A stretch of 20,000 nucleotides of DNA from an uncultured virus (IMG/VR IMGVR_UViG_3300020411_003822) (Duplodnaviria > Heunggongvirae > Uroviricota > Caudoviricetes): the IMG/VR virus record IMGVR_UViG_3300020411_003822. One strand, 5' to 3'. The position numbers and the translations under genes were made by a program. Positions 2-13,157 of this stretch are shown here, piece after piece (within the stretch, counting starts at the first letter, position 1; every line of letters starts with the position of its first letter). The notes beneath the pieces were generated by a model. That model worked only from the letters and a program-made list of their open reading frames with translations. It was not told where the DNA came from and searched no databases.

Positions 2-139
2 TATGTAGAAGACGAAAATGGAAAACTTGTGAGAAAAAGCACAGGAAAGAGGCTTACAATGGAAGAACATGAAGAAGCGATTATCAATGGTCGCTTTGCA
101 GAAACTGAACACAAGGGGGGCAGGGAGTCATCGTCCTGA
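2..139 (+). CDS. 3' end of hypothetical protein (partial, begins before window)
   Basis: Frame 2 is open from base 2: YVEDENGKLVRKSTGKRLTMEEHEEAIINGRFAETEHKGGRESSS*, TGA at 137-139. It reads through the ACTGAAC motif at 104 as T-E-H. Confidence 0.7.
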   Translation, partial: YVEDENGKLVRKSTGKRLTMEEHEEAIINGRFAETEHKGGRESSS

Positions 140-171
140 GGCATCCCATCCCTACGGATACCCTGCTCCCC
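115..171 (+). other. GC-rich stem-loop between cassette junctions
   Basis: GGGGGGCAGGG (115-125) pairs with CCCTGCTCCCC (161-171), 11 bp with one G-U; inner ATCC-CTAC-GGAT hairpin at 148-159. Confidence 0.6.
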
Positions 172-179
172 ACCTAAAC

Positions 180-701
180 ATGACTGAAACTGAACCAGTT
201 GAGGTAAAAGTTCTACCCTATGAAGGATATGAACTGACGGAATGGGAATTGCGTAGCAATCCCGACAAAAATGGATTGAGAAAGATAGAAGGAATTGATT
301 GCAAGACATCGTGGCCGACAGAAGTTGAAGTCGGACAGCACCTTGTAAGAAATAATCTCACCTTAGAAGAAGTGAAAAAAGTAGAACGAGGACCAATTAC
401 AACATGGATCTTGGGAGAATACATGCACAACGACAAAATTGTACAGTACAATGTCGAGAACCACAACAAACAATGGGTAATCATACTTGAAGAACAAACT
501 GAATTAGTCCAAGCGGAAATCAAACTTCATCTCAAAATGCGAGAAATTGCGCATGAGCATGTGAAGAAAAAAATCGAAGAAGCTGAGGCTAAGGGGGAAC
601 CTTTGTTCAAACCTACACGCTTCCGACACAAGGAAACAGGAGAGATTGTAACTCAAATTAACTTGATGCAGATCAAGAATTACGAGAAACTCGATGACTG
701 A
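180..701 (+). CDS. Hypothetical protein (array unit)
   Basis: ORF track gives 69..701, but ATG 180 follows the degenerate motif CCTAAAC and 69-179 overlaps the upstream gene and hairpin. The stop TGA lies inside the motif at 697. Confidence 0.75.
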   Translation: MTETEPVEVKVLPYEGYELTEWELRSNPDKNGLRKIEGIDCKTSWPTEVEVGQHLVRNNLTLEEVKKVERGPITTWILGEYMHNDKIVQYNVENHNKQWVIILEEQTELVQAEIKLHLKMREIAHEHVKKKIEEAEAKGEPLFKPTRFRHKETGEIVTQINLMQIKNYEKLDD

Positions 702-703
702 AC

Positions 704-994
704 ATGACTGGACAGGAACCAGAACAGGAAAAGGTTGGAGTTTGTGGATACTGCGATTTTGTGCAGGGATACCACCCTCACAACATGTTGCGTATTGACG
801 AGAACCCACGATTAGCATATGACTTTTGCAAGTCGTGCGGAGGGCATCATTTGCAACCAACATCACAATGCAAGGATTTCATACCGAGAAATCCAGATGT
901 GTATGAGGGTTCGATTTGGTTTTGCCAGGGCTGCGGTTCTGGAACTGAGTTCGAAATCACAATGAAAGAGGCCTTGAAAAAAGCAGATTACTGA
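704..994 (+). CDS. Small Cys-rich (zinc-ribbon-like) hypothetical protein (array unit)
   Basis: 96 aa; CGYC, CKSC, CQGC motifs; starts at motif ATG and stops in the next motif's TGA. Confidence 0.8.
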   Translation: MTGQEPEQEKVGVCGYCDFVQGYHPHNMLRIDENPRLAYDFCKSCGGHHLQPTSQCKDFIPRNPDVYEGSIWFCQGCGSGTEFEITMKEALKKADY

Positions 995-996
995 AC

Positions 997-1281
997 ATGG
1001 ACACATATTGCAGTTTATGTGGGGAACCTTTTGACATTGGAGAATTTTCATACATGGAAAGATTCGATGCAGAAGAGGCATCTAAGATATTCCGCCTATA
1101 CGGTTGCGGGATCTTATGGAAAATGGAAATGAATCCAGAATTGTCTTTGGAAGAGGCAAAGGAATTCAAATGTAGCCCAAGAAATGTTGAGATGAAACAC
1201 CTTGCAGATATGGCAGGCGCATTAGGCGACATCATGGGCGATGATATTGACGGATTAGCATCATTGATGGATGGATACTGA
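997..1281 (+). CDS. Small hypothetical protein with N-terminal CxxC (array unit)
   Basis: 94 aa; YCSLCGEPFD; bounded by motifs at both ends. Confidence 0.8.
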   Translation: MDTYCSLCGEPFDIGEFSYMERFDAEEASKIFRLYGCGILWKMEMNPELSLEEAKEFKCSPRNVEMKHLADMAGALGDIMGDDIDGLASLMDGY

Positions 1282-1282
1282 A

Positions 1283-1510
1283 ATGAGCAAAATCAAGGAA
1301 GAAGCGATTGACTTACGATCATCCTTGCACAAAGTAAGGGAAATTTGCAAGCAAAATGCAAAAATGATAAATGAAATCCCAAGCAAATGGACTCGTGCAC
1401 AAAGCGCGAAAGAATTTACGGGATTAGCCGATTACATCGGATGCTTACTCATAAAGGACGATAAGGGAAGAGAAAAGGCATTATTGCGCTGGGCGAAAAA
1501 AAACAAATGA
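1283..1510 (+). CDS. Small basic hypothetical protein (array unit)
   Basis: ORF track 1271..1510; start moved to ATG 1283 in ACTGAA-ATG (MSKIKEE...); stop 2 nt before the next motif. Confidence 0.75.
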   Translation: MSKIKEEAIDLRSSLHKVREICKQNAKMINEIPSKWTRAQSAKEFTGLADYIGCLLIKDDKGREKALLRWAKKNK

Positions 1511-1519
1511 ATACTGAAC

Positions 1520-1972
1520 ATGGCTCACTATTATTGCAAAAGATGCAAAAGACAAATGAAAATATCTTGGCAAGCACCCACTACCAAAATATGTGCAAGG
1601 TGCTGCAGAGAAGAAAGAGAGAGTACAGGAAAACCGATTCCTGGTCCTAAAGGACTGAACATGAAAGAAAAGGCCGATTGGTCCATTTGCGTTGATTGGG
1701 AAGTCGATGAAAATGATTGGATAACAGAGGAAAGAACAGAAAACTTGGCGAAACTATCCGTCTGTTTACTGTTCAACCATCGCTTTCCGAAGTGGATTTG
1801 GAAGGCACTTTGGTATAATCTGCCCTGGAAAGCAGCAGAAGCCACAGAGAAATACATCAAAGAACATTCAGATATTTTGGATGAAAAAGGATGGCCAGAA
1901 GCGAATGAATACATCAAGGAATTGAGAAAAACAATAAAGCAAACTGAACATGAGTTGGCGATGCCGATGTGA
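1520..1972 (+). CDS. Hypothetical protein, apparently an in-frame fusion of two array units (Zn-finger 1520-1660 + unit from ATG 1661)
   Basis: CKRC...CARCC in the first 47 aa; internal ACTGAACATG at 1654 reads G-L-N-M in frame; C-terminus reads through the 1943 motif as T-E-H. Confidence 0.75.
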   Translation: MAHYYCKRCKRQMKISWQAPTTKICARCCREERESTGKPIPGPKGLNMKEKADWSICVDWEVDENDWITEERTENLAKLSVCLLFNHRFPKWIWKALWYNLPWKAAEATEKYIKEHSDILDEKGWPEANEYIKELRKTIKQTEHELAMPM

Positions 1973-2240
1973 TGAAGATGAATTGCCAATCCTACGGGGA
2001 TTGGTAGATGAGATCCTCTGCAAAGCGGAGGAAATGGAACAAAGCACGAACCGCTTTCTAAGAGAGGTTGGTGCAGAATTGAAGAAAACAATTTGGGAAT
2101 CTAACAATGAACCCAAAAACGATGGTTCACCTATCTGGTGGCCGAGACACGAAACGATTAACGGCAACATCTGCTTAATCGAAGAGATTCTTGATGAGAA
2201 CCAAGAACCAATTAAGATGCGTGTTAAACACGAATACTGA
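1950..2240 (+). CDS. Small acidic hypothetical protein (array unit)
   Basis: 96 aa; starts at motif ATG and ends at the TGA in the motif at 2236. Confidence 0.8.
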   Translation: MSWRCRCDEDELPILRGLVDEILCKAEEMEQSTNRFLREVGAELKKTIWESNNEPKNDGSPIWWPRHETINGNICLIEEILDENQEPIKMRVKHEY

Positions 2241-2242
2241 AC

Positions 2243-2647
2243 ATGAGTATCTGCGGACATTGCAATACGGAAATTACATCTGAACCTATGAGCAAAGGTG
2301 TATATGGAGGGGACTGGATTTCCAGTTGCCCTATTTGCGAATGGTGTAGTGAAAGCGAAGAAGATTCGAAGATTAAACAGGGATTAACCCTTGAGGAGCT
2401 TGTCGAACATAAAGCCAAATTGAATAGCGTATATGCGAAATTACACGATCTTGTATTTCGAGCAAGAAGTGCAAAAGGAGCATATAGGCAACATTCGACC
2501 AGCCATACTCCCAACAAATCATTTGTGAACAGAACTATGTCAGAAGAAATAATGGTGGAACTTGGTGAAGCCATGAATCAACTTTTGGACAAAACTGAAC
2601 ACCCTGCTGTGCAAGCGCACGGCAGGGCTATTTTGCGGCCTCGATGA
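2243..2647 (+). CDS. Hypothetical protein with N-terminal zinc ribbon (last array unit)
   Basis: 134 aa; CGHC...CPICEWC; reads through the 2594 motif (T-E-H) into the hairpin region. Confidence 0.75.
   Translation: MSICGHCNTEITSEPMSKGVYGGDWISSCPICEWCSESEEDSKIKQGLTLEELVEHKAKLNSVYAKLHDLVFRARSAKGAYRQHSTSHTPNKSFVNRTMSEEIMVELGEAMNQLLDKTEHPAVQAHGRAILRPR
2602..2634 (+). terminator. Hairpin plus short T-tract closing the array (putative terminator or structural site)
   Basis: CCCTGCTGTGC-AAGC-GCACGGCAGGG (2602-2627; 11 bp, one G-U) followed by CTATTTT; a further T8 at 2663-2670. Confidence 0.5.
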
Positions 2648-2691
2648 AAACGGGGTCGCCTATTTTTTTTGGCCCTCATGAAAACGGGGTC
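2628..2691. repeat. Imperfect tandem direct repeat (2 copies, about 32-34 bp period)
   Basis: Exact ATGAAAACGGGGTC at 2644-2657 and 2678-2691, each preceded by CTATTTT...GGCC(C)TC. Confidence 0.8.
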
Positions 2692-2824
2692 ATTCTATGA
2701 TTCGACCACACTTTCTGCAACTACGAGGGTGGCATCCAGAGTGCCGAGGGCAGGGGTTTTCACATTTACATTCATCGGACATGCTCGCAGAATATCCGCT
2801 CGACTTCATAACGGTGTCGCTACG

Positions 2825-2854: not shown

Positions 2855-3154
2855 ATGACAACAGTTGGCGGTATGAATTGGAATGAATTTCGCAAGCAGC
2901 ACAAAGGAGAGGACAAAGAGAGAATCTCCGAACTATGGAAACTATACAAAGAAGGAGAATACGACCCCGAAGCTTCAACAAACATCGACCCAAATCACGG
3001 ACACGATCTGGACTACATCGCAGAAGTAGAAGCAGAGATGGCCGAAGAAGCCGAAGAAAATGAAGTCAAGAGAGAACCTGAGCAACAGGAATACTTGAAC
3101 GAGTTAAACAACGAAGAGAAAAGAACCGGTTTGAAATCAATCACTCACTGGTGA
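2855..3154 (+). CDS. Acidic hypothetical protein
   Basis: ORF track 2669..3154; start revised to ATG 2855 (MTTVGGMNWNEFRKQHKG...) from motif spacing and because 2669-2854 is repeat-rich; 3' end overlaps the convergent gene by 14 nt. Confidence 0.7.
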   Translation: MTTVGGMNWNEFRKQHKGEDKERISELWKLYKEGEYDPEASTNIDPNHGHDLDYIAEVEAEMAEEAEENEVKREPEQQEYLNELNNEEKRTGLKSITHW

Positions 3155-6089
3155 AGTTATTTTTCATCGCTTCCATTCTCTCAAGGTAATCCTTGAACTC
3201 ATGGTCTATCCATGTGATCGTGTCATAATTAGCACCATATCTGACTACTGTGCCAGGTTCCAGTTCACTGATTGGTATATCCGGCAATCTTTCATTCATC
3301 AATTTCCGCTCCTCTTTCGTTCTTTTCGGAGCCTTAATCAATTTCTTGTTGTAAACAGACCTTAACTGACTCTCAAACTTCTTCTCTTCTTTGGCAGTGG
3401 GTGCACTTGTGCCCTCAGAGAGATTGTATTCCTCCAATAATGAATCCAATGATTGAATTGCATACTTCCAATCATCGATTAATTCTATGAATGAATCCTG
3501 AGCCAATAACTCTTCCTTCATTTCAGCCCAAACTCGAAGATGTTGTTGTTGCTCAATATCCTCTTTCCTTCCGCCTGCAGAAAGAGTTTCAAGAATAGAA
3601 TCCGCTTCACCAGTCCAAGATTTACCCGTAACCTCAACGGCAAAATCATTCACTGCTGTATAAGCATCTTTCAATTGCGCTTTCAAAGCGAGAAGCTGTT
3701 TAGTCGGTACAGATGCATATTTGCCTTCTCCAGCCTCGCCAAGAGTTCCGTGTTTGTCCACTTGGCCAGCGATCTGACTTGAAAGTGGATGATTCATATC
3801 ATCAATCAATCCCATCGGTGCTGCACTAAGCAAAACTTGTGTCTGTCTCTCATAGGCCTGAGCAAGCACACTTTGGTAATGCCTGGGAACACCGTCAATA
3901 ATCTCAGTTCGAGCACCTTTGGTCGCAGCCCTACCTGTTACGGAAGCAGAACCAGAGCGGGCGTTTGACATGACAATATCACTACACAAGGAATCAGCGA
4001 GTAACAAGTAATGCTTGAAATGAACAGGAACAGTTTTCCCTCCAGAAAGTATCGTTTTCCCATTACCTTGAGCGTTGAACATATTGTGGGCAAGTTGCGC
4101 TCTTGCCGCTTCAATCCCAAGAACAAGTTCAACCTGCCTTGAATCACTTGTTGTTGTACGATTAAAATCAATTTTCAATTTCTGAGTCCCAGTCAAGTCA
4201 TCGTTGTAATCATAATTCGATGCAGTTATGAAATGACCCTTGAAATTATTCATTCGACCATCATTGATGTCTTTGTAAGAAAGCAAAATGTAGTATTCAT
4301 CCATTATTGGATCGTTAATGATTCGACCTCCATGCATAAAGGCAAGCGGATAATCAGAGTTTTGACCTTTACGACTTGCACCTGGATAAGTCAAAAAGGA
4401 AATATCATCAGGATAAATTGTGTATTCTCCATTCACCTTGTAATCAAGACTACCTATGTGCTTCGCAATATCGACTTGACCCATGTGATCTTCTGCTCTG
4501 TAATCAGCAACCATTCCAATTTCCGCTTCTTCGTATTTTCCATCTTCAACATCTTTTGCCTCAATGGTTTGGTCCCATTCCTGATAGGGTTTGCCATAAT
4601 TGAATTGAACCACATTAGCGTTGATATTGTACCATCCGTGATGACAATTTCCACAACGCCTTAATTTCCGACCAAGTTCAGCAATCTCGAAATCATATCT
4701 ATCTGATGTAGACATATCAATTTCAACCAAACCAACCGATTCATCTTGTAGCCTCTCTAATTCTTCATCAGTCAATCCTTCTGGGTTATCCTTGACTCCC
4801 GTAATATCAAAGGAACTACCAGCAGTAGCTTCAGCGAGCAAATTCGAAACAACAGTCGCATCATATTCCGTCTGAGGCCATCTTGAGTCCCATTCTGGAT
4901 CCTCCACCTTTTCAGTACCTTTCCTTCCAGCCTTGTGTACCAATTTAGCAAGAGTAACAGGGTGTTTACAGTTTCCACACACCTCCAAACGCATTAAAAT
5001 CTGCATCAAACTCATTTCAAGACGGAAGGTGAGGTATGGAAAAGTAAGTACAATGCCTGTAATTTTTTCATCACCTATCTCTACCGTCACGCCATTTCGG
5101 TCCGACATCTTACAATTCTTCCAAATAAAGTGAAGCGGATTATCTGCATCCCCTACTGTTCTAAAGGAGCCATCAGATGTTCTCAGTTGCCGCCTAATGA
5201 TGGTCCATAATTGTGCTACATCATTCAAATCGTTCTTCTTCAACTGGTTATACTCGAATGAGTTTCGATCAGACAATGCTAATTCAAGTTCAGATTCAGA
5301 TAAGTTGCTATTCAACATTCTTTCATTCTTCAAGTAAATGAAATATGATTGAGACTTTGCCGCCTCAAGTTGTGCTTTGAAGGCTAAATTCTGCAATCTC
5401 TTATGCTCATCAAGGACAGCCTGGTATTCTGGCAAAGGCTTTCCAGTCACCTCAACCATTTCGTCTAAAACTTCACTGTACTCTTGTTTCGTCTCATAAC
5501 GCTCTTCCTCAGGAAATGACCTAACCTTCTCATACGCCTTTTCAAGCACCCCTGAAAGCATCAATTGAATATGAGCAGGTTCATTCTTTACAATACCGCA
5601 ATGGTCGGACAAAACAGTTCTTTTCAAGCCCTTAGCAAGTTTTTCCGCCTTGTTCTTGTCGAATCTAATCTCCGGAGGTAACGCTAAAGCAACAAGTGCG
5701 TTCTTGTTCGGTGTCTTCCCTACCTCGATATTGAGAAGTTCTAATTCATCCTTGTTTGTAAGCACACCAGCATAGTGGAATGTTCTCATTCCTCCCTGAT
5801 ATGCAGGTTCAGAAATTGAAGTCGCAGCAATTGGGCCAATAGGCGTCATTGGATCTATCCTTGCTTCTAAAACAGATTTCTGTAAACCATCCAACACCTT
5901 CTTCACAAAATCATTGGGAACATCACTCAATTTCCTGTATTTTTCTGTAAGAGGTTCCTTTGTATCGGCATCCACGGCACCCATCTTAGTGGCAACATCA
6001 AGGAGCATCAAGTCATTAACAGCATAATGTGTATTGTCCAGGGAATCCCTCAAAAGATTCTGCCAGTCCAGTACGAGGTCCGCCGCCAT
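3141..6089 (-). CDS. rpo1C: Divergent, enlarged archaeal-type RNA polymerase subunit A'' (Rpo1C) homologue, about 982 aa
   Basis: Collinear A'' motifs: [30 protein letters not shown] (trigger loop; archaeal consensus [22 protein letters not shown]), KTP...[64 protein letters not shown]...QIAGQ. Start set at ATG 6089 by the upstream motif. Confidence 0.88.
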   Translation of the reverse strand: [982 protein letters not shown]

Positions 6090-6105
6090 GAAGTCGCTAA
6101 GCAGT

Positions 6106-6118
6106 TCATCCGTATGAA
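6106..6118 (-). promoter_or_regulatory. Conserved upstream motif, copy 2 (Rpo1C homologue)
   Basis: Minus strand TTCATACGGATGA, 16 nt before ATG 6089. Confidence 0.7.
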
Positions 6119-6135
6119 GAAAGCGACAGTTGAAA

Positions 6136-6801
6136 TTACGATTCAATCATTTCTCGAAGACGCTTAGCCTTGACTGGGCCGCCACAAACCTTCACAAACG
6201 ACTGCCAAGAACCATCCTTCTCAGGGTCTTTCCAAGATTCATATTCTCGTTGTACTTCCTCAGGAACTTCCATTATCATTTCCGCTGGAATATCTGGAGC
6301 GGAACCATTTGATTCAATCACGGGAGTCATGTCCTCCTCGACAGGGATTTGTTCAACCTCTTGCTCTTCCTCTTTCTCTTCATCTTCTCTCGAAGAAATC
6401 TCGTTGAATAATTCAGGATCACTGTATAACACATTAGTGTATGAAGGCTCATCAGATTTGATTCTCTCTTCCATTTCGTCTAATTTCCTGATAACAAGCC
6501 CTGCGAATTGTTGGTTAGCTTGTAGCATAGCCTCCGCATTCAAATGATGCAGTTTCCTCAAATTGTCAATATGTCCTGGAAGCCAAACAGGTTCCGCCAA
6601 AATCTGCTCAAATAGCGACATGCGCTTATCCATAGCATCCAACCTTCTCACGATTGCCTCAAAACCCAACAGTATTTTCTTGGTATCGATTTCCGTAGTT
6701 TCTGTTCCCTGCATGGTATCTTGTGGAACATCAGAGTTTGCATCTTGAGGGATTTCTGGAACAAAGCCAGGTCGAAACGAAGAAGCCCAGTCATCTGACA
6801 T
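6136..6801 (-). CDS. Acidic hypothetical protein with coiled-coil segments
   Basis: ORF track 6136..6807; ATG 6801 (MSDDWASS...) is 17 nt below the motif. Confidence 0.75.
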   Translation of the reverse strand: MSDDWASSFRPGFVPEIPQDANSDVPQDTMQGTETTEIDTKKILLGFEAIVRRLDAMDKRMSLFEQILAEPVWLPGHIDNLRKLHHLNAEAMLQANQQFAGLVIRKLDEMEERIKSDEPSYTNVLYSDPELFNEISSREDEEKEEEQEVEQIPVEEDMTPVIESNGSAPDIPAEMIMEVPEEVQREYESWKDPEKDGSWQSFVKVCGGPVKAKRLREMIES

Positions 6802-6818
6802 GAACAAAGCGATAACTC

Positions 6819-6831
6819 TCAGCCGTTTGAA
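6819..6831 (-). promoter_or_regulatory. Conserved upstream motif, copy 3
   Basis: Minus strand TTCAAACGGCTGA, 17 nt before ATG 6801; its TGA is also the RNase H stop codon. Confidence 0.7.
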
Positions 6832-7316
6832 TGTGTGGGAGAAAGCATACTTGCAATTCTCGCCAGCCGATCTGCATCGGTATTCTCTTCACGGGGCAAA
6901 TATTTGAAATCAATTCGCAGCACATTTGAAGTGAAATTGTTAATCAAGCCATTTCTAAGATACTGTACATAATTGTGCAATTCTTGTAATCGTGGCTCCT
7001 TGACTTTGTATTCACCGTTAATTTGCCTGATAACAAGTTGAGAATCGCTGTAAATGATAACTTCCATTAGACCAACCACATCTAAAGGACCTCTTGTGAC
7101 GGGGCCTCCAAGCCCTGTCTGCAAATACTTCAGCGCACCAATGACTGCATGATACTCTGCCTCATTATTCGTGGACTTAGGGGGGAGAGGTACTAAAAAT
7201 CGAGCAGTGGGCCTCCATTCATTGAGATTCGGGCCAAATGCCTGCTCAACATGTACGCCAGAACCACTGCCTCGACCAACAAAATTAGATCCATCACAAA
7301 AAATCTTCACTTTCAT
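6819..7316 (-). CDS. rnhA: Ribonuclease HI (type 1 RNase H)
   Basis: KIFCDGS, STNNEAEYHAVIGAL, IYSDSQLVIRQINGEYKVK, LPREENTDADRLA: D-E-D-D catalytic set intact. Confidence 0.93.
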   Translation of the reverse strand: MKVKIFCDGSNFVGRGSGSGVHVEQAFGPNLNEWRPTARFLVPLPPKSTNNEAEYHAVIGALKYLQTGLGGPVTRGPLDVVGLMEVIIYSDSQLVIRQINGEYKVKEPRLQELHNYVQYLRNGLINNFTSNVLRIDFKYLPREENTDADRLARIASMLSPTHSNG

Positions 7317-8062
7317 TCACAATCACACTCCGAACCACAACTCATTGGCTCTCTTCTATCAATTCGTTTGAAACAATGACTGCACATCAATACGCCTTGA
7401 CCTAACACCGGCCAAGAAATGCCCCCTGGCATGTATTTCTCCAAAACATCATCGATTTCCTGTCCAAATTGAATAACATCTCTCCGACTCAATCGAGTAA
7501 AGGGTGCTTTTGCAGTTACTTGCGATAACGGATGAGTAAAACAATCCTCCAGTGGCCCACTTCCTTGCTGAATAATGCGCCTCATCGAAGCAATCCATCT
7601 CTTGCCCGACATTCTCAAACTCATTCTGTGCACGGGGTGAACAAGAAGATTGTCGCCAAGCCCCGCATTATTTGAAACAACCAGTGCTACTGCATTTGAG
7701 GCATTGGGTGCACGAATGTCTATCTCTAATTGAGAATCAATATCAACAACATGCCAATCATATTCGTCACGATCTAACTCAAGTTCGAACGGCACCGGAG
7801 AATCAGACCAACTCCAACCTGTATGTTGCAGAACTTCTGTTGGAAGTTGAGTAGAGTAATGGGAACCTTCCGAATCAATAGCAACAATTCTGAAATACTT
7901 GTGTCCAGTTCTTTCTTCAATAAACAACCTGGATTGCTTTATTTCACAGTTTCCTTTACCTCTAATTTTAATTTTATGTCCTCTTTGCGGTCCTTCGAAA
8001 ACATTGTCTTGGTTGAACATAACAGGAGCGGGGAACCCTCTGCCTCTTGAAGCCTTCGTCAT
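7313..8062 (-). CDS. Hypothetical protein with C-terminal Cys cluster
   Basis: 249 aa; CSHC...CGSECDC; 4-nt ATGA overlaps with both neighbours. Confidence 0.75.
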   Translation of the reverse strand: MTKASRGRGFPAPVMFNQDNVFEGPQRGHKIKIRGKGNCEIKQSRLFIEERTGHKYFRIVAIDSEGSHYSTQLPTEVLQHTGWSWSDSPVPFELELDRDEYDWHVVDIDSQLEIDIRAPNASNAVALVVSNNAGLGDNLLVHPVHRMSLRMSGKRWIASMRRIIQQGSGPLEDCFTHPLSQVTAKAPFTRLSRRDVIQFGQEIDDVLEKYMPGGISWPVLGQGVLMCSHCFKRIDRREPMSCGSECDCE

Positions 8063-8571
8063 ATTTTCTTCCCCCCGAACAAAGCGCCAAAGATCATGGT
8101 AATTCCCTCAGCAACTTTGCCTAATGAAAGACCGGCCTGCTTTGATTCCCAAGTACCATGCAAAGCGTAATTCGCATAGTGCTCGCAGTTCCGTGTCAAT
8201 AAGTTGTAATCATTGCGATGCAACATTTCTTTCGCTCTATCAAGAACAGGTATAGGCTCATCTGGAACTTCAACGATTTCAATATCTCTGCCTTCGGAAA
8301 AACGAACATAATCAGTCAAACCAACCCTGGTGCCAGTATGGCTATCGGGAGCATCAACAGATGGACTCCAAACACGATTTAGCAACCTTGACGACCAAGA
8401 CTGCTCCGAAATCTCCCCCTCATAGACGCCCCCAAACTGATAGATTAGTTGCAATCTGGTATCAGGGTGATAATACTCAGAAGCTACACCATAATGGAAA
8501 AAACTGCCTCTCTGAAACCTTCTTCGAAGAATTGCACCAGGAGGAAAGGGCATTTCGGGCTCTTCGTCCAT
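8059..8571 (-). CDS. LRAT-like (H-box/NC) circularly permuted NlpC/P60 thiol enzyme
   Basis: PGAIL...FFHYGV (H-box), LDRAKEML, YNLLTRNCEHYANYALHGTWESKQ (NCEH motif); hydrophobic/amphipathic C-terminal tail. Confidence 0.88.
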   Translation of the reverse strand: MDEEPEMPFPPGAILRRRFQRGSFFHYGVASEYYHPDTRLQLIYQFGGVYEGEISEQSWSSRLLNRVWSPSVDAPDSHTGTRVGLTDYVRFSEGRDIEIVEVPDEPIPVLDRAKEMLHRNDYNLLTRNCEHYANYALHGTWESKQAGLSLGKVAEGITMIFGALFGGKKI

Positions 8572-8601: not shown

Positions 8602-9000
8602 TTAATCCCAATCAGTTATTGGCTGGTGTCGAGAAGCCACTAAAGCAAAAACTCCTACAGTCTTGTATCTTCCATCTGCAGCTTTCAATACTCTACTGTT
8701 AATTCGTTTGAAATCAGGGTGGCGAAACACACCGCCTACAATTCGAGGATCACAATCTGCTGGCAACGGCAGTTCCGACAATACATCTTCAATAGTCACC
8801 TCTCCACTATCAGTTGCAATTCTCACAGCAACAGACCTTGCTTCCTCTATCCAAGAATAACGCAGGGGTTTTGTAGTCGAGGATAATTCAAGTTCTCGCA
8901 GTTTTTCCTTTAGTCGTGAAGATTGATCACTGGGCAATTTGAACATGCTCGTAATAACTCGCATTACTTTCTCCACATCATCTGCCTTCATTGGCTTCAC
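8602..9000 (-). CDS. Hypothetical protein, possibly winged-helix DNA-binding
   Basis: 132 aa (GTG 9000 or ATG 8991); GEVTIEDV...DPRIVGGVFR resembles small viral helix-turn-helix proteins; judged by eye only. Confidence 0.65.
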   Translation of the reverse strand: MKPMKADDVEKVMRVITSMFKLPSDQSSRLKEKLRELELSSTTKPLRYSWIEEARSVAVRIATDSGEVTIEDVLSELPLPADCDPRIVGGVFRHPDFKRINSRVLKAADGRYKTVGVFALVASRHQPITDWD

Positions 9001-9422
9001 TCCATAGGCGAAATTTCGATTAACACTGAGGGCGCTTCTCCTTGAGCAACTTGAACTTTCAAAACTTGTAGGGATGATATTTGCCGGTCATCATCAGCAA
9101 GCATACCAGAAGCAAATAGGGCATCCATGTAATGTTTAGCAATGTTATCCACATCAGGCCCGTTAGATTTCCACTGTGCTTGCAAAGGAGTTCTTTTCCT
9201 ATGCTTTGATTTAGGGCACGCAAATTTAGCGACAATACGAACTGCAATAGCCCCAGTCATGCGCTGAAAATCCTCAGGCAGTTGGCTTTTCGCCATAACT
9301 TGAATGTGAGCCTTACTCGATTTAGATTCCGCCTTCTCATATGCGATTGGCTTACCTGAGCGCGTTGAAAATCGAGGCCTACCCTGTGCCATAGGCGGCC
9401 CTGGAATCTCAATCTTGTACAT
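8997..9422 (-). CDS. rusA: RusA-family Holliday junction resolvase
   Basis: IPGPPMAQGRPRF, PDVDNIAKHYMDAL, DDRQI; start revised to ATG 9422 (MYKIEIPG), preceded by GGAGG. Confidence 0.92.
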   Translation of the reverse strand: MYKIEIPGPPMAQGRPRFSTRSGKPIAYEKAESKSSKAHIQVMAKSQLPEDFQRMTGAIAVRIVAKFACPKSKHRKRTPLQAQWKSNGPDVDNIAKHYMDALFASGMLADDDRQISSLQVLKVQVAQGEAPSVLIEISPME

Positions 9423-9753
9423 GCTTATCCTCCAACTGATCCAAAACAAAAGCAACCATGTCCGTCCACTTAGACCAAGAATTGACTCGCTTTAATCTCC
9501 CTAATTCATCCCTTACTTCGAGCGGAACATCACGACAAACGATGAACCCAGTATCTTCTTTGGTCCAATCAACTTGCATTGGGGTGATTTTCTCAGAGTT
9601 CTCAAGCACCCAGTAAGCCATATCTGCCCAAGAGTTCCAACCCATCTTGCGTCTGACTACAATCAAACGGTCCTTTACATCAAAAGGAAGCCCTCTCAGA
9701 ACAATATTTCCAGTTAGAACTGGAATCAGAACCTTCGGTTCATCGTCCTCCAT
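9409..9753 (-). CDS. Protein with two internal ribbon-helix-helix-like repeats (putative regulator)
   Basis: GNIVLRGLPFDVKDRL...MGWNSWADMAYWVLE and GFIVCRDVPLEVRDEL...NSWSKWTDMVAFVLD; start ATG 9753 (alternative 9759). Confidence 0.65.
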   Translation of the reverse strand: MEDDEPKVLIPVLTGNIVLRGLPFDVKDRLIVVRRKMGWNSWADMAYWVLENSEKITPMQVDWTKEDTGFIVCRDVPLEVRDELGRLKRVNSWSKWTDMVAFVLDQLEDKHVQD

Positions 9754-9769
9754 GCACATGCCAAGCCTT

Positions 9770-9782
9770 TGAACCGTTTGAA
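9770..9782 (-). promoter_or_regulatory. Conserved upstream motif, copy 4
   Basis: Minus strand TTCAAACGGTTCA, 16 nt before ATG 9753. Confidence 0.65.
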
Positions 9783-9794
9783 GTTAGGGCAAGA

Positions 9795-10526
9795 CTATCC
9801 CATTAATCGGCTCAAGACCTGCTCTGTTTCATCATTCTTTGTTAGCAAATTGGAAATTAAATTATCTTGGGGTTGTTTCTGTGAATCATCCTCCCAATAT
9901 TCATTGTATTCTGGATCAGGTGTACCATAATTCGATAATAACGGCTTATCCCTATCCTCTTCTTTCCGAATATGCTTGAGATAATTTGCAACTTTATCCA
10001 TATCAAGTGTGTCTATGAATTGAGATGCTTTACGAATTTCATCAGAAATGCCACGAATGTCAATGTCGTCAAAGGAATGTAATCCAGGGGCGACCTCATC
10101 TCGAACATTTTCAAGCAAATCCCTGATTGCGGGAACATTGATTCCATCAAGTTGCGTGTGGAAAGCTTCCAATCTGTTTGCGGCTACATGAAGCGACTCA
10201 AGCAATTCCACCATTCTCGCCTCCATGAGATCTGCTTTATCTTCAACCCGTACCGTAACAACAGAAATCAACAGGTTTGTGCCAATTGTAAACGCCAAAG
10301 CAGCAGCAAGAATGTATGTCCATGCAGTCGGATAGATGTAACTCACAACTGGAGCAGACATTACCAATAAAGCAGTAAATACGAACAATATGGACCGAAT
10401 GCGCTTATCATACTCGATAGATTCTCGCATACTGACAATGTCCTGTTCTAAACCAACAGGAGATTCCCATTCCTCCTCCTCCTCCTCATATATTGGGACA
10501 AGAGAAGGAAGCGACAAATCAATCAC
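9795..10526 (-). CDS. Membrane protein (2 predicted TM helices) with helical soluble domain
   Basis: Hydrophobic ILFVFTALLVMSAPVVSYIY and WTYILAAALAFTIGTNLLISVVTV; GTG start overlapping the upstream stop. Confidence 0.75.
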   Translation of the reverse strand: MIDLSLPSLVPIYEEEEEEWESPVGLEQDIVSMRESIEYDKRIRSILFVFTALLVMSAPVVSYIYPTAWTYILAAALAFTIGTNLLISVVTVRVEDKADLMEARMVELLESLHVAANRLEAFHTQLDGINVPAIRDLLENVRDEVAPGLHSFDDIDIRGISDEIRKASQFIDTLDMDKVANYLKHIRKEEDRDKPLLSNYGTPDPEYNEYWEDDSQKQPQDNLISNLLTKNDETEQVLSRLMG

Positions 10527-11047
10527 TCGCCTGATGTATTCGGCTCCTCTGAATCAGGTATGCCATCATTGTCATCGTCTTGATCTACATCATCAGGGAT
10601 TCCATCACCGTCAGTGTCCTTCTTGACGCCCATCATTTGTCCAAGACTGGTTACAGGCTTTACTGCAGCGCCAACAACGGCACCTGCGGCCTTTTGTGCA
10701 ACATTCTTTGGTTTTGGCTCTTCGACCTTCAATTCTGGAGCATCCTCATCTTTTTCTTCATCACGAACCCATTCTGGAACGCCGTCTTTCAAAACAAGAT
10801 GCAAAAGAAGCCATTGTTGTGCAACAGTCAGTGGCGCATCCAAAGCCTTCTCCTTGAATCCTTCGAAACGCCTATCTGTCAGCCCACCCTTAATGAAATT
10901 AACCAACCGAGCAAGGTCAGGTTCCCCAGCACCCAAATATCGCTTACAACGATTTACCCAACTGTCTCTTATCCTGATTCCTTTTGTCAAGAAACCAGGA
11001 AGCATTGTCTTTCCAAGATCATACGCATATAACGATTCATCACCCAT
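10523..11047 (-). CDS. Hypothetical protein with thrombospondin type-3-like Ca-binding repeat
   Basis: C-terminal KDTDGDGIPDDVDQDDDNDGIPDSEE. Confidence 0.75.
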   Translation of the reverse strand: MGDESLYAYDLGKTMLPGFLTKGIRIRDSWVNRCKRYLGAGEPDLARLVNFIKGGLTDRRFEGFKEKALDAPLTVAQQWLLLHLVLKDGVPEWVRDEEKDEDAPELKVEEPKPKNVAQKAAGAVVGAAVKPVTSLGQMMGVKKDTDGDGIPDDVDQDDDNDGIPDSEEPNTSGE

Positions 11048-11053
11048 TTCTGT

Positions 11054-12478
11054 TCACACTCCTTTAGCCGCAGCCAATACTCCCTCAATTACTTGCCGAT
11101 TCTCGGCTGCAGAGAGGAATTCGATGTCGTATGCAATATTTTTCTGCCCAGGTGGGTCGCAGTCTGCATAACTTGTAATAATCTCCATTAGAGATTCGTA
11201 TGATTCATGCTGGAAAACTTCCCATAGCTGATGGTCTCGCATGAATGAGCCGGCCATTTCTATTGAAACAACTCCTTTGTTGATATTTTGAACACTCATA
11301 CCAAGAATACGCAGGTTCACGATAACCAATAATTCCATGATTGAACGCTCGATTTGGTTCTGTACCGAAGTTGGATACATATCCTCTGCTCTTCGAACCG
11401 CTCTTTCAGTAGTTCTCTTCAAGATTTCAATGAATACTTCGTTACTCTTCCATTGGTCAGGCAATGTTTGATGTATTTGTTGCATTACTGCCCTACATTT
11501 GTCCTCAAAGGAAACTTCTGGAATCGGTTGTTGCATAGGAACAGGCTCTTCCCATTGTTGAAGAGCGGGTTCTGCGAATTGTGATTGAGCCTGTGGCATT
11601 GAATAACTCGGTGGTGCGCCTACTGGCGGACTTCTTGCCGACATAACAGATTTCAAACCAGTAGCGATACTTCCAGTAATCTCCGCAAGTTGTCCCGAAC
11701 GAATCAATGAGTCAAGAACAGATTCTTCTGTTCCCCCACCACCAGATCTCAATCCATCAAGTGCCATTCCAATGAGGGTTTCATCAGTTGTTGAACGACC
11801 CCCACCGTTTCGCATACTATCAATAACAAGACCCATCATTTGAGTTTGATTTTGATTCATAGCATTCATCATCATTGCTTGGTCTTGTCTTGAACGCTCA
11901 GAGTTCCGCTCTTGGCTTTCTAACAATTTCAACATGACAAGGCTATCATTCCCATCTTTCTTACTTGAGTTAGAACGAATCAATTCAGTCATTAGAGTAG
12001 CAAGCAATTGATCCGAACCTCCGCTTGCAACACCTTGCTGATACGATACACCTTGAGATTGCTCAAACTGATTTCTCGCATGATTCAAAGCAGCGACTTC
12101 CTGATAATGAGTTGTAGCATCTCGAATCGTACTTGAACCGCCTTGCGGCTCAATTGGAGTTGGCTCAAAGTTAGGAATGACTGGCGCAGCGACAGCGGGT
12201 GCGGCCTTAGCCTGAACTTTTCTCGCAGGGGGCCTGTTTCCAGCCGCCAACCAAGCCTCATGAGAAACTCGAATGACCTCGGAAGAAACGCCCATTTTCT
12301 TGGACACAAAATCCACATCAAGATTCCCTGCGGCATCATAGAAAATTGGTGTACCCACCAAATCAGTCCTACCTTCGTATTCCGGTGTGTTGTCAATCAA
12401 TTGTTGTGTCCAAACTGCCTTGAAGACAATGTCAAGTTCACTTTTCAAATCTTCCGTATTTCCTGGTCCATCACTCAT
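11054..12478 (-). CDS. Hypothetical protein (Q/M/P-rich central region)
   Basis: ORF track 11054..12490; ATG 12478 is preceded by GGTGA, an archaeal-type SD. Confidence 0.78.
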   Translation of the reverse strand: MSDGPGNTEDLKSELDIVFKAVWTQQLIDNTPEYEGRTDLVGTPIFYDAAGNLDVDFVSKKMGVSSEVIRVSHEAWLAAGNRPPARKVQAKAAPAVAAPVIPNFEPTPIEPQGGSSTIRDATTHYQEVAALNHARNQFEQSQGVSYQQGVASGGSDQLLATLMTELIRSNSSKKDGNDSLVMLKLLESQERNSERSRQDQAMMMNAMNQNQTQMMGLVIDSMRNGGGRSTTDETLIGMALDGLRSGGGGTEESVLDSLIRSGQLAEITGSIATGLKSVMSARSPPVGAPPSYSMPQAQSQFAEPALQQWEEPVPMQQPIPEVSFEDKCRAVMQQIHQTLPDQWKSNEVFIEILKRTTERAVRRAEDMYPTSVQNQIERSIMELLVIVNLRILGMSVQNINKGVVSIEMAGSFMRDHQLWEVFQHESYESLMEIITSYADCDPPGQKNIAYDIEFLSAAENRQVIEGVLAAAKGV

Positions 12479-13140: not shown

Positions 13141-13157
13141 GAATAGTCCCAACCCTT

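What the first reader, a model, noticed from the sequence alone, without database searches (positions are those of the whole stretch)
104..2601. Array of small genes delimited by an ACTGAACA(TG) junction motif: candidate new gene-cassette system
Seen: ACTGAACA occurs 8 times in the first 2.6 kb (104, 697, 990, 1513, 1654, 1943, 2236, 2594), with variants at 173 and 1277, and I did not find it in the remaining 17 kb. Every array gene starts at a motif ATG with no SD or TATA. The 3' ends ignore frame: the motif's TGA is the stop in 4 cases, a stop lies 2 nt upstream once, the ORF runs through as T-E-H three times, and it fuses in frame once. Inference: this frame-independence argues against simple stop/start coupling and fits units joined at a 7-8 bp crossover core (integron-like stockpiling without attC stems), or a sequence-specific mRNA processing or template-switch signal that yields leaderless monocistronic RNAs. 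No recombinase is in the window.
Basis: partly seen in the sequence, partly recalled or inferred. Interest (0 to 1): 0.92.

Follow-up and report, generated by a model that had tools for sequence, protein, structure and literature searches.

The report
Seven-letter gene-boundary signal, archaeal virus-like elements
In a group of uncultured ocean archaeal virus-like elements, almost every gene of a 27-40 kb block of accessory genes starts directly after the same seven letters (ACTGAAC), which replace the usual ribosome-binding site and are also the exact points where whole genes are gained, lost and swapped between relatives.

Summary
ACTGAACA occurs 8 times in window 104-2601 against about 1 expected. 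This is the tail of an array of 45 ACTGAACATG copies over at least 26.6 kb on the window's own metagenome contig.

The same signal heads nearly every gene of one-directional 30-kb arrays in other uncultured elements. No cellular genome scanned showed such an array. A distant relative, a complete 128.8-kb genome, has a 40-kb array with ACTGACC instead.

- The elements look archaeal: an archaeal-type RNA polymerase A''-like gene, a thermosome, Rpb5-like and PCNA-like genes.
- The motif abuts ATG, with no ribosome-binding or TATA signal upstream.
- It also flanks tRNA genes and small hairpin units.
- It is essentially absent inside genes.
- Among alignments of at least 88% identity, 40 of 57 internal ends lie on it.
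- RNA-library contigs never bridge it (weak).

Best reading (0.35): an RNA punctuation site that yields leaderless messages, with gene shuffling at the repeat as a consequence. It is not an integron.

The parts
104..110 (+). ACTGAAC copy without ATG, at the end of the upstream ORF (read through as T-E-H) and followed by a hairpin unit
111..172 (+). 61-62 nt non-coding hairpin unit whose 11-bp terminal stem (GGGGGGCAGGG...CCCTGCTCCCC) fills the space between two motif copies
   Evidence: (104-182 folds at -29.6 kcal/mol, z -2.51, 3 of 200 shuffles as good); no homologue in the other fetched loci
173..182 (+). variant junction CCTAAAC+ATG; likely start (ATG at 180) of gene 180-701
   Evidence: an RNA-library contig ends at window 180
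697..706 (+). ACTGAACATG junction: TGA stops gene 180-701, ATG starts gene 704-994
   Evidence: gene 704-994 is 81% identical to a unit in L079 that sits in another context
990..999 (+). ACTGAACATG junction: TGA stops gene 704-994, ATG starts gene 997-1281
   Evidence: gene 997-1281 is 77% identical to a unit in L104 with other neighbours
1277..1285 (+). variant junction ACTGAA-ATG: TGA stops gene 997-1281, ATG starts gene 1283-1510
1513..1522 (+). ACTGAACATG junction; the upstream gene stops 2 nt before it; starts ORF 1520-1972
1654..1663 (+). ACTGAACATG junction read through in frame (ORF 1520 runs into the ATG at 1661); starts gene 1661-1972
1943..1952 (+). ACTGAACATG junction; the upstream ORF overlaps it (T-E-H) and stops at 1972; starts gene 1950-2240
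2236..2245 (+). ACTGAACATG junction: TGA stops gene 1950-2240, ATG starts gene 2243-2647
2594..2600 (+). terminal ACTGAAC copy of the array, without ATG
   Evidence: the same layout at array or unit ends in G1, L072, L116, L137 and G004
2601..2696 (+). array end: hairpin CCCTGC...GCAGGG plus a T-run, then two copies of the element GGCC(C)TC-N-ATGAAAAC-GGGG, the second after T8
   Evidence: the same element follows terminator-like hairpins in G1 and L116, only on the array strand
3141..6146 (-). 1001-aa protein like archaeal RNA polymerase subunit A''/Rpo1C, convergent on the array end; the same synteny in L137 and G004

Best explanation
ACTGAAC is the unit-boundary ('punctuation') signal of a long, one-directional array of accessory, probably early or anti-defence, genes. 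The array belongs to uncultured marine archaeal virus-like elements that resemble what the literature calls magrovirus group D.

Proposed mechanism:
1. The array is transcribed in a few long units. These run from conventional heads to hairpin/T-run ends.
2. The transcript is cut at each ACUGAAC by a sequence-specific factor that differs between element lineages.
3. Each protein-coding RNA then begins at, or 1-3 nt before, its AUG. It is translated as a leaderless message, so no Shine-Dalgarno sequence is needed.
4. The tRNAs and small hairpin RNAs embedded in the array are released in the same way.
5. Every unit is flanked by the same 7-10 bp. Recombination between copies, within or between co-infecting elements, therefore inserts, deletes and reorders whole working units. 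This gives cassette-like turnover as a consequence.

Shown:
- the extent of the array;
- the lack of SD or TATA signals;
- the flanking of RNA units by the motif;
- avoidance of the motif inside genes;
- the lineage-specific motif variant;
- breakpoints at the motif.

Inferred:
- that the signal acts on RNA;
- that the act is cleavage rather than initiation;
- that the messages are leaderless;
- that the host is a Poseidoniales archaeon.
For: - **Scale.** There are 45 ACTGAACATG in 33.4 kb of the own contig. G1 has 69 on one strand and 0 on the other; G2 has 44 and 0. 28 array loci were kept from the scans, three by-eye exclusions aside.
- **Position.** Of 490 ACTGAAC sites in those 28 loci, 436 are followed directly by ATG. 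Others have a 1-3 nt spacer.
- **No other signal.** Nothing is conserved upstream of -10. SD-like 4-mers occur at 82 of 439 motif starts against 390 of 2200 random array positions.
- **SD as the alternative.** Many array genes that lack the motif carry GGAG or GAGG 5-9 nt upstream, or a one-letter motif variant.
- **Non-coding units.** The motif also bounds tRNA-Arg and tRNA-Lys genes on the array strand. It bounds 49-76 nt hairpins whose terminal stems start right after ACTGAAC and end right before ACTTAAC. One such hairpin is in the window at 111-172.
- **Avoidance inside genes.** In 361 ORF interiors (150,054 nt), ACTGAAC is expected 14.4 times. All 18 found are junctions (17) or the array-terminal copy (1).
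- **Array ends.** The motif is kept at array and unit ends before terminator-like hairpins.
- **Lineage-specific variant.** The relative with a 25%-identical A''-like gene uses ACTGACC (60 copies). Its tRNA-adjacent variant changes at the same sixth position: ACTAACC against ACTTAAC in G2.
- **Not a host-wide signal.** Only 5 of 34 copies in a 1.9-Mb MAG lie outside the element contig. No cellular array appeared among 45 genome hits.
- **RNA libraries.** None of 18 contig pieces on the array bridges a junction (7.0 expected, P about 2e-4). Three end within 1 nt of the A of an ATG.
- **Breakpoints.** 40 of 57 internal alignment ends at 88% identity or more lie on the motif in both sequences, where 5.6% of positions would. 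There are clean single-unit indels in pairs that are 90-99.7% identical.
Against: - No RNA end has been mapped. The RNA evidence is Logan contigs of three runs from one study, which cannot show true ends. DNA carry-over and strain mixtures are possible. One of the three 'ends' continues 12 nt into a variant junction with a different upstream sequence, so that break reflects strain mosaicism and not an RNA end.
- No nuclease candidate was identified.
- A 7-nt unstructured cleavage site recognised by a protein is known to me only for toxin-type RNases (recalled). It is not known as a genome-wide expression device.
- The base after the motif is nearly always a purine and the base before it is C. 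That is equally what a transcription start would show.
- Half of the upstream ORFs stop in the motif's own TGA (209 of 418), and two thirds lie in that frame. All motif variants contain a stop triplet. Both facts also fit translational coupling.
- The reverse complement is mildly depleted (1 found, 5.5 expected, P 0.03). A purely RNA-level signal does not predict that.
- The avoidance test could not be repeated in G004, where only 0.8 copies were expected.
Confidence: 0.35

Rival explanations
1. Initiator-type mini-promoter. Each ACTGAAC directs transcription to start at the next base (A of ATG, G of the hairpin RNAs). The polymerase would be the host enzyme re-equipped with element-encoded subunits (A''-like, Rpb5-like, perhaps a TFIIB-like factor). 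The result is leaderless messages, much as poxvirus late genes start at TAAATG (recalled).
For: - A''-like genes sit next to the arrays in the window, L137 and G004. Rpb5_C proteins occur in G1 and G2, with a weak TFIIB match in G2.
- The motif variant goes with the A'' lineage.
- C at -1 and a purine at +1.
- The motif precedes tRNA and hairpin RNA units.
- The motif is avoided inside genes, and its reverse complement is mildly depleted.
Against: - The complete genome G004 has no recognisable catalytic RNA polymerase domains. Rpb1_2 and Rpb2_6 gave 0 matches although the controls rang in 14 of 14 genomes. There is therefore no polymerase of its own.
- There is no TATA/BRE or any other upstream signal.
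- There are no terminators at junctions, so transcripts from upstream starts should read across them. Yet 0 of 18 RNA contigs bridge one.
- The tandem hairpin units have no T-runs between them.
- Promoter-like and terminator-like elements exist only at array heads and ends.
Confidence: 0.2
2. Translation signal on an uncut polycistronic message. Ribosomes that terminate at or next to the motif's stop triplet restart at the AUG 0-3 nt downstream, and ACUGAAC enhances this restart in place of a Shine-Dalgarno sequence.
For: - 209 of 418 upstream ORFs stop in the motif TGA and 102 more stop 2-6 nt before the motif.
- Every motif variant holds a stop triplet: TGA in ACTGAAC and ACTGACC, TAA in ACTAAAC and ACTTAAC.
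- Motif-less genes in G004 start by plain stop-start overlaps such as TAAATG or TGAATG.
- SD-led genes substitute for motif-led ones.
- One ACTGACC-GTG start in G004.
Against: - The motif flanks tRNAs and non-coding hairpins, and it ends arrays where nothing is translated next.
- The bare 7-mer without ATG is purged from gene interiors, about 0 found against 14.4 expected. A start-enhancer would not require that.
- About 32 ORFs run through the motif by 9-54 nt, and some fuse in frame.
- The first gene after a terminator also has the motif, with no upstream ORF to restart from.
- RNA contigs do not bridge junctions.
Confidence: 0.12
3. Dedicated site-specific recombination. ACTGAAC(ATG) is the crossover core of a cassette system, worked by an element recombinase. 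The expression role is secondary.
For: - Unit indels and reorderings lie exactly at the motif.
- One junction exists in three states in G2, L119 and L081.
- A 175-bp unit is 95% identical between otherwise unrelated lineages (L119 and L128).
- Gene order decays fast: the next gene is homologous in 11 of 57 pairs at 60-80% identity.
- The motif is avoided inside genes and its reverse complement is depleted.
- All copies point the same way.
- Serine recombinases occur in G1, G2 and G004.
- ACTGAAC matches the recalled integron inverse core RYYYAAC at 6 of 7 positions.
Against: - Nothing is conserved and there is no dyad symmetry around the 7-10 bp. Recombinase sites known to me are 25 bp or longer (recalled).
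- There is no space for attC-like structures, because stop and start codons sit in or at the motif.
- No tyrosine recombinase was found in what was scanned.
- This reading does not explain why motif genes lack SD or why ATG must abut the motif.
- Selection for intact genes, plus recombination at identical 10-mers, gives the same breakpoints.
- ACTGACC is not depleted in the non-array part of G004, 9 found against 6.4 expected.
Confidence: 0.1

Closest known systems
PeSL mobile regulatory cassettes of T4-type phages (PMC2839356, PMC4122927; seen only as search listing and abstract starts; details recalled)
   Same: Repeated expression signals sit between small, variable, mostly unknown genes in hyperplastic regions. 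Insertions, deletions and replacements between close relatives have their ends at these repeats.
   Different: PeSLs are composite promoter plus stem-loop motifs of tens of bases in intergenic DNA of bacterial phages (recalled). Here only 7-10 nt are conserved, there is no promoter or stem-loop, the motif overlaps the stop and abuts the start codon, it replaces SD, it covers about nine genes in ten over 27-40 kb, it bounds tRNAs and hairpin RNAs, and the elements are archaeal-type.
Integron gene cassettes (attC, IntI; recalled)
   Same: One-directional stockpile of promoterless units of mostly unknown function, bounded by a short core, with unit-wise gain and loss. ACTGAAC fits RYYYAAC at 6 of 7 positions.
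   Different: There are no attC hairpins and no room for them. No tyrosine integrase was found. The core abuts the ATG and acts as the expression signal. tRNAs and RNA hairpins are units too.
Poxvirus late promoter TAAATG and the 6-nt upstream conserved sequence of yeast linear killer plasmids (both recalled, not looked up)
   Same: A very short private signal at or near the start codon of each gene of a virus-like element that carries polymerase genes.
   Different: Those elements encode complete polymerases. G004 lacks recognisable catalytic subunits. Here upstream genes end inside the signal, and RNA contigs do not bridge it.
tRNA punctuation of animal mitochondrial transcripts, and transcription-regulating sequences or gene junctions of nidoviruses and mononegaviruses (recalled)
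   Same: Polycistronic genomes are resolved into units at a repeated boundary signal. The resulting messages are leaderless or nearly so. The boundary signals are also recombination hot spots in nidoviruses.
   Different: Those are RNA viruses or organelles. In mitochondria the boundary is a folded tRNA and not a 7-nt word. Nothing like it is described, to my knowledge, for DNA viruses or plasmids of archaea or bacteria. Searches found none.
Magrovirus 'group D' (Philosof 2017, PMC5434244, one passage read; Xu 2023, PMC10160649, four passages; PMC11706807, three passages)
   Same: Marine, archaeal-type thermosome, 'resolvase' and RNA polymerase A genes. No recognised capsid module. Discussed in those papers as possibly plasmid-like.
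   Different: A family-B DNA polymerase, named for group D, was not found in the complete relative G004. None of the passages read mentions a gene-start motif.

Membership tests
Integron | attC recombination sites (imperfect inverted repeats of about 57-141 bp, recalled) between cassettes | tested here: not met
   Nothing is conserved beyond the 7-10 nt. The upstream stop lies in the motif in 209 of 418 cases or 2-6 nt before it in 102, and the ATG abuts it, so no space is left.
Integron | adjacent tyrosine integrase (IntI) | tested here: not met
   Pfam scans of 20 window ORFs, 59 G1/G2 ORFs, 95 ORFs of five loci and 57+3 G004 ORFs found only serine recombinases and RusA. The own contig was seen only in part.
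Integron | core site GTTRRRY / RYYYAAC (recalled) | tested here: inconclusive
   ACTGAAC fits at 6 of 7 positions (G at position 4). The consensus is recalled and comes from no call.
PeSL-type regulatory cassette | composite promoter plus stem-loop repeat (recalled) | tested here: not met
   No promoter-like or stem-forming conservation around 436 junctions.
PeSL-type regulatory cassette | indel and replacement end points at the repeat in close relatives | tested here: met
   40 of 57 internal alignment ends lie at the motif. Clean unit indels are shown.
Shine-Dalgarno-led initiation | purine-rich GGAGG-like element 5-10 nt before the start | tested here: not met
   82 of 439 motif starts against 390 of 2200 random positions carry an SD-like 4-mer at -20..-8.
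Archaeal TATA/BRE promoter at each gene | A/T-rich box about 26 nt upstream of the start | tested here: not met
   Information content is 0.03 bit or less at -20..-40, in 436 sites. The same holds in 60 G004 sites.
Leaderless mRNA | RNA 5' end at the A of AUG (or up to about 5 nt before it) | not testable with these tools
   Only Logan contigs were available. 3 of 18 pieces end within 1 nt of an ATG (P about 2.5e-4), but contigs cannot show ends and one of them continues into a variant junction.
Leaderless mRNA | near-exclusive AUG start codon (recalled property) | tested here: met
   436 of 490 ACTGAAC copies are followed by ATG. None of the other 54 is followed by GTG or TTG. In G004 there are 60 ATG and 1 GTG.
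Magrovirus group D | thermosome, resolvase and RNA polymerase A genes of archaeal type; no capsid module (PMC5434244 passage) | tested here: met
   G004 has Cpn60_TCP1 (E 1.6e-101), Resolvase, RusA and Rpb1_5, with no capsid family among the Pfam hits. The window has Rpb1_5 and RusA. The thermosome's nearest named cellular hits are Poseidoniaceae and Poseidoniales at 34-35% identity.
Magrovirus group D | family-B DNA polymerase | tested here: not met
   PF00136 gave 0 matches in G004 (complete), G001 and G002. The controls rang in 6 of 14 genomes.
Element-encoded multisubunit RNA polymerase | catalytic large-subunit domains (Rpb1_2, Rpb2_6) | tested here: not met
   0 matches in G004, G001 and G002. 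The controls rang in 14 of 14 genomes.

The most novel reading that the evidence does not exclude
A family of archaeal virus-like elements runs its accessory genome as a string of plug-and-play units separated by a private 7-nt word. An element-encoded, sequence-specific factor cuts (or starts) the RNA at every copy. Messages become leaderless, and tRNAs and small RNAs are released. The same word is the sanctioned crossover point for exchanging units between elements. It would be a combined RNA-punctuation and gene-cassette system, unrelated to integrons and so far undescribed in any prokaryotic virus or plasmid.
Probability: 0.3. Interest if true: 0.9.

Novelty: new variant of a known kind. 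Interest (0 to 1): 0.8.

Why it matters
If the reading holds, a short private word can replace both per-gene promoters and ribosome-binding sites in an archaeal mobile element, and can at the same time make every gene a portable unit.

That would explain how these abundant ocean elements keep a 30-40 kb, fast-changing arsenal expressed whatever the gene order. The arsenal includes methyltransferases, a Mom-like gene, PAPS-reductase-like genes and many genes of unknown function.

It also gives a concrete handle on gene expression in uncultured Poseidoniales-type archaea: a 7-nt site, a lineage-specific variant, and candidate partner genes. It offers a simple marker (ACTGAAC/ACTGACC + ATG arrays) for finding and delimiting these elements and their units in metagenomes.

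Even under the most ordinary reading, a private start signal with recombination at the repeats, the density and invariance are unusual. I counted 436 of 490 ACTGAAC copies followed directly by ATG across the 28 loci that I classed as arrays.

Tried and rejected
- **Host-wide ribosome-binding site with an altered anti-SD.** Rejected. The genome-contig scan gave 45 loci, near the roughly 34 that I estimate by chance. Only one held an array, on a 19-kb contig binned with a MAG whose other 1.9 Mb holds 5 copies.
- **Protein-level signal (shared peptide).** Rejected. Upstream ORFs meet the motif in all three frames.
- **Assembly chimera at repeats.** Unlikely. A 10-bp repeat is below assembler word sizes, and the same junctions recur at 98-99% identity in contigs of different records.
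- **Other genetic code.** Not pursued. ORFs between motifs are open under table 11.
- **Guide RNA carrying the anti-motif in the array leaders.** No consistent GTTCAGT or GGTCAGT was found.
- **RNase P RNA or another known RNA in the leaders.** Rfam found only tRNAs.
- **Complete element-encoded RNA polymerase.** Not found.
- **Close relatives in public phage records.** There was no match in GenBank phages by protein or by DNA. The single-protein scan of IMG/VR found nothing, and the A''-like protein was not found in G001-G003.
- **Protein similarity between the window and the other array elements.** tblastn with 29 window ORFs found none in G1, G2 or L022 at E 1e-3.
- **Whole genome for the window.** None is held. 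Metagenome records could not be searched by handle.
- **Avoidance test in G004.** Too little sequence, with 0.8 copies expected.
- **Homologues of the window hairpin 111-172.** None in the fetched loci.
- **Coverage gaps in the RNA runs.** Parts of L085 without RNA-contig cover are not used as evidence.
- **Earlier notes of this scan.** Nothing on this motif, this genome or look-alike stretches.
- **Literature.** The motif strings hit only primers and the like (25 of 6,351 papers listed). Searches and passages on magroviruses and archaeal viruses gave no description of such a signal. Supplements were not opened.

Full report
**1. The observation**

ACTGAACA occurs 8 times in the window, all on the + strand between 104 and 2601. 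About one copy is expected, and 0 of 200 shuffles reach 8. The variants at 173 (CCTAAACATG) and 1277 (ACTGAAATG) are present. The TGA is the stop four times. A stop lies 2 nt upstream once. The ORF reads T-E-H three times. There is one in-frame run-through, at 1654.

Six copies are followed by ATG. The array genes have no SD-like sequence, while several other genes of the window do.

**2. The window shows only the tail of the array**

No genome is held for the window. A scan of metagenome contigs for two motif copies 270-300 nt apart found the window's own contig, held as L085 and L139. On it the window lies on the reverse strand, with 24 kb of further array upstream. In total there are 45 ACTGAACATG in 33,434 bases, and a single copy of the 7-mer's reverse complement (GTTCAGT) on the array strand. 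The window matches the contig for its first 9,426 bases and then runs past the contig's end.

**3. The motif heads arrays in many elements but in no cell**

- *Virus contigs.* The same pattern found two long contigs. In G1 (60.9 kb) there are 69 copies on one strand, all but one between 30.5 and 60.3 kb, and none on the other strand. In G2 (49.8 kb) there are 44 copies on one strand between 0.3 and 29.2 kb. In both, nearly every ORF of that half starts at a motif ATG, including ORFs of 300-500 aa.
Of the 114 loci counted, 61 held four or more copies. I classed 28 loci as true arrays after removing tandem coding repeats, CRISPR-like repeats and one duplicate. Three of the exclusions were my own judgement.
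- *Species genomes.* In 185,579 species genomes the pattern gave 45 loci, about what I estimate by chance. Only one was an array: a 19-kb contig binned with a 1.9-Mb MAG. That contig holds 29 of the MAG's 34 copies.

The signal is therefore private to these elements and is not a property of a host genome.

**4. What the elements are**

The window encodes these recognisable proteins:

| Window position | Strand | Match |
|---|---|---|
| 8997-9455 | - | RusA |
| 6819-7316 | - | RNase H |
| 8059-8571 | - | LRAT-like |
| 3141-6146 | - | Rpb1 domain 5, 1001 aa |

The best solved relatives of the 1001-aa protein are archaeal Rpo1C/A'' subunits (E 3e-13). Its 16 close relatives are all unnamed metagenome proteins.

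- L137 repeats the window's layout: array, hairpin, then a convergent A''-like gene and an LRAT-like gene.
- G1 and G2 encode Rpb5_C-domain proteins, a weak TFIIB-like match (below the Pfam cut-off), serine recombinases and large glycosyltransferases.
- Array genes with a recognisable family are Dam, N6/N4 and C5 DNA methyltransferases, a Mom-like protein, PAPS-reductase-like proteins, a PCNA-like protein and several DUFs. Most have no match at all. Only 14 of 103 G1/G2 array ORFs had any PHROG family. I read this mix as early or anti-defence genes, which is an inference.

A profile of the A''-like family found a complete 128,784-bp genome with direct terminal repeats, G004, whose A''-like protein is 25% identical. 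It encodes a thermosome, a serine recombinase, RusA, an LRAT-like protein and glycosyltransferases. The thermosome's nearest named cellular relatives are Poseidoniaceae and Poseidoniales proteins at 34-35% identity.

This gene set is what Philosof et al. called magrovirus 'group D', of uncertain nature (PMC5434244, one passage). Later papers discuss that group as possibly plasmid-like (PMC10160649 and PMC11706807, passages). However, G004 has no recognisable family-B DNA polymerase, so membership is open. It also has no catalytic RNA polymerase domains.

**5. The distant relative uses a different word**

G004 has a 40-kb array convergent on its A''-like gene. It has 60 ACTGACC-ATG copies on one strand and one on the other. 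There is one ACTGACC-GTG, and a terminal ACTGACC without ATG.

Next to a tRNA-Lys that G2 and G004 share, the junction is ACTTAAC-ATG in G2 and ACTAACC-ATG in G004. Position 6 of the word (A or C) therefore goes with the lineage in both forms. Position 4 is free (G, T or A). This points to a reader of the motif that evolves with the element.

**6. Anatomy of the junction**

Across the 28 arrays, 436 of 490 ACTGAAC copies are followed directly by ATG. None of the other 54 is followed by GTG or TTG. Others carry a 1-3 nt spacer, such as ACTGAAC-A-ATG or ACTGAAC-AC-ATG.

Outside the ten letters there is only a mild preference for A at -8 to -10 and A-rich codons after the ATG. There is no TATA-like or SD-like signal. 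G004 shows the same picture. SD-like 4-mers are as common at random positions (390 of 2200) as before motif starts (82 of 439).

The fate of the 418 ORFs that start at a motif and are followed by another motif:

| Where the ORF ends | Number |
|---|---|
| In the next motif's TGA | 209 |
| 2-6 nt before the motif | 102 |
| 7-51 nt before the motif | 22 |
| Runs through the motif by 9-54 nt | 32 |
| Followed by a gap of 70-957 nt | 53 |

The gaps hold genes with one-letter motif variants (tCTGAAC, CTTAAC) or with ordinary GGAG/GAGG elements 5-9 nt upstream. The motif and SD therefore look like alternatives.

**7. The motif is not only a start signal for proteins**

In the head region of G1's array, tandem 49-nt and 75-76-nt units each form a hairpin. 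The terminal stem begins right after ACTGAAC and ends right before ACTTAAC-A-ACTGAAC. L116 has the same unit type. The window itself holds such a unit at 111-172, between the copy at 104 and the variant at 173 (-29.6 kcal/mol, z -2.5).

tRNA genes lie on the array strand and are flanked by the motif:
- tRNA-Arg(TCT) is in the own array, G1 and L073.
- tRNA-Lys(CTT) is at the heads of the G2 and G004 arrays.
- In the own contig, the tRNA starts at the G of ACTGAACATG.

Arrays and sub-units end with ACTGAAC followed by a terminator-like hairpin. This is seen at window 2594, G1 45350, L072, L116 and L137. A conserved element follows such hairpins before the next unit.

**8. The bare 7-mer is avoided inside genes**

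In 361 ORF interiors (150,054 nt) an order-2 model expects 14.4 ACTGAAC copies. Eighteen are found, but 17 are real ACTGAACATG junctions that the upstream ORF runs through. The last is the array-terminal copy at window 2594. That leaves none truly internal.

Control words with the same TGA are near expectation: ACTGAAA 16 against 22.9, ACTGAAT 14 against 16.6, GCTGAAC 11 against 10.3. The reverse complement is mildly depleted, 1 against 5.5. An earlier, cruder count (24 against 19) had not separated functional copies from internal ones.

Avoidance means the 7-mer is active wherever it stands. That argues against a pure translation-restart enhancer. It fits a cleavage site, a start site or a recombination site.

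**9. Gene turnover happens at the motif**

Single array units of the own contig recur at 65-92% identity in other arrays, with other neighbours and in another order. Gene order decays quickly with divergence:

| Identity of the homologous pair | Pairs whose next gene is also homologous |
|---|---|
| 60-80% | 11 of 57 |
| 80-95% | 16 of 30 |
| 95% or more | 25 of 32 |

In megablast alignments of 88% identity or more, 40 of 57 internal alignment ends lie on a motif in both sequences, where 5.6% of positions would. The ends are not independent, since some loci are near-duplicates. Examples:
- L084 carries a 256-bp unit between two ACTGAACATG copies that its 90%-identical relative L126 lacks. The same unit sits, 92% identical, between unrelated neighbours in the own contig.
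- L119 differs from the 99.5%-identical L081 by one 311-bp unit. G2 has two other units at that same junction.

It does not by itself need a dedicated recombinase. Crossovers between identical 10-mers, filtered for intact genes, give the same result.

**10. RNA**

One search found three metatranscriptome runs of one study that hold 7-12% of the sampled words. They are kept as Logan contigs. When laid on L085, 18 pieces of 150-440 nt fall in the array part. None bridges a junction, against 7.0 expected on random placement (P about 2e-4). Three pieces end within 1 nt of the A of an ATG (P about 2.5e-4).

One of those three continues for 12 letters into ACTGAA-ATG with a different upstream sequence. 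That break is a strain difference at the junction and not an RNA end. Contigs cannot show true ends, and DNA carry-over is possible. I count this only as a weak hint that RNAs are discontinuous at junctions. If it holds, it fits cleavage better than start sites without terminators.

**11. Weighing**

- The signal has an expression role, shown by the missing SD, the abutting ATG and SD-led genes serving as substitutes.
- It acts as a bare 7-mer, shown by its avoidance inside genes.
- It bounds non-coding RNAs.
- It is read by something lineage-specific.
- It is the place where units are exchanged.

I favour RNA punctuation by cleavage, yielding leaderless messages (0.35). The rivals are an initiator-type start site for a host polymerase carrying element subunits (0.20), a translational restart signal (0.12) and a dedicated recombination core (0.10). 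The remainder is for something not yet thought of. In all of the first three, unit shuffling at the repeat is a by-product, as proposed for PeSLs in T4-type phages (PMC2839356 and PMC4122927, listing and abstract starts only).

**12. Novelty**

I found no description of such a signal. Motif strings hit only primers and the like. Magrovirus and archaeal-virus searches and passages gave nothing. The scan's own index held nothing either. Supplements were not read, and subscription journals are not covered.

The nearest known kinds are repeated regulatory cassettes that also mediate shuffling, and private start signals of viruses. This case differs in four ways: its size (7 nt), its position (overlapping the stop and abutting the start), its coverage (about nine genes in ten over 27-40 kb), and its inclusion of tRNA and hairpin units.

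Noticed in passing
window 111-172: A 61-nt non-coding hairpin unit with an 11-bp terminal stem sits exactly between two motif copies. Analogous 49-76 nt hairpin units stand in tandem at the head of the arrays in G1 (L015 about 1430-1840) and L116 (about 3640-3700). Their function is unknown and Rfam has no match.
   Followed up: partly
window 2637-2689; L015 about 2040-2070; L116 about 3790-3815: A conserved element GGCC(C)TC-N-(A/G)TGAAA(A)-N-G(A/G)GG follows terminator-like hairpins and T-runs at array ends and heads, on the array strand only (8 matches counting duplicates, 0 on the other strand). An ATG lies 26-28 nt after the T-run in the three cases I counted by eye. It may be the conventional promoter or head of a transcription unit.
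   Followed up: partly
L139:14216-14290 (-), L015:1847-1923, L073:811-885, L066:10656-10732 (-), L266:14795-14871 (-): tRNA-Arg(TCT) and tRNA-Lys(CTT) genes are embedded in or at the head of the arrays on the array strand, flanked by motif variants. The tRNA-Arg unit is shared at about 88-90% identity between otherwise unrelated arrays.
   Followed up: partly
L066 about 9200-11900 (- strand) and L266 about 13900-16300 (- strand): About 2 kb of GC-rich, apparently structured non-coding sequence lies upstream of the G2 and G004 arrays. It has iteron-like repeats (…TCTAGAG(A/G)GCCG(A/T)TGGCCTAT…) and stretches conserved between the two elements. Rfam finds only the tRNA. It could be an origin of replication or a large RNA.
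   Followed up: partly
window 3141-6146 (-); L137:13685-16159 (-); L264:9544-12063 (+): A metagenome-only family of 810-1001 aa proteins is related to archaeal RNA polymerase subunit A'' and carries a large insertion. It is always convergent on the array end. The complete relative has no catalytic polymerase subunits, so a swap of this subunit into the host enzyme is conceivable.
   Followed up: partly
L261:10015-18984 (-), L262:9896-16351 (-): G004 encodes giant ORFs of 2989 and 2151 aa, the latter with guanylate-kinase, DUF7831 and DUF5754 domains. Several further ORFs of 900-1070 aa have no family.
   Followed up: no
L063:9999-10823 (+), L067:5941-6900 (-), L261:2417-3370 (-): A serine recombinase (Resolvase domain, in G1 and G004 with part of the Recombinase domain) is conserved in G1, G2 and G004. 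In G1 and G004 a DUF7689 protein lies within about 3 kb of it. Its target is unknown.
   Followed up: no
L028 (PEQN01000004.1, about 3850-7450): A CRISPR-like array in a Leptospira MAG has a repeat that happens to contain ACTGAACATG (41 copies at about 71-nt spacing). It is unrelated to the finding.
   Followed up: no
window 9427-20000: The window matches its metagenome contig only up to window position 9426, where that contig ends. The rest of the window must come from another, longer or permuted record of the same element.
   Followed up: no
window 1520-1972: ORF 1520 runs in frame through the junction at 1654 into gene 1661-1972. This may be a fusion of a 47-codon unit with the next unit, or two products from one frame.
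   Followed up: no
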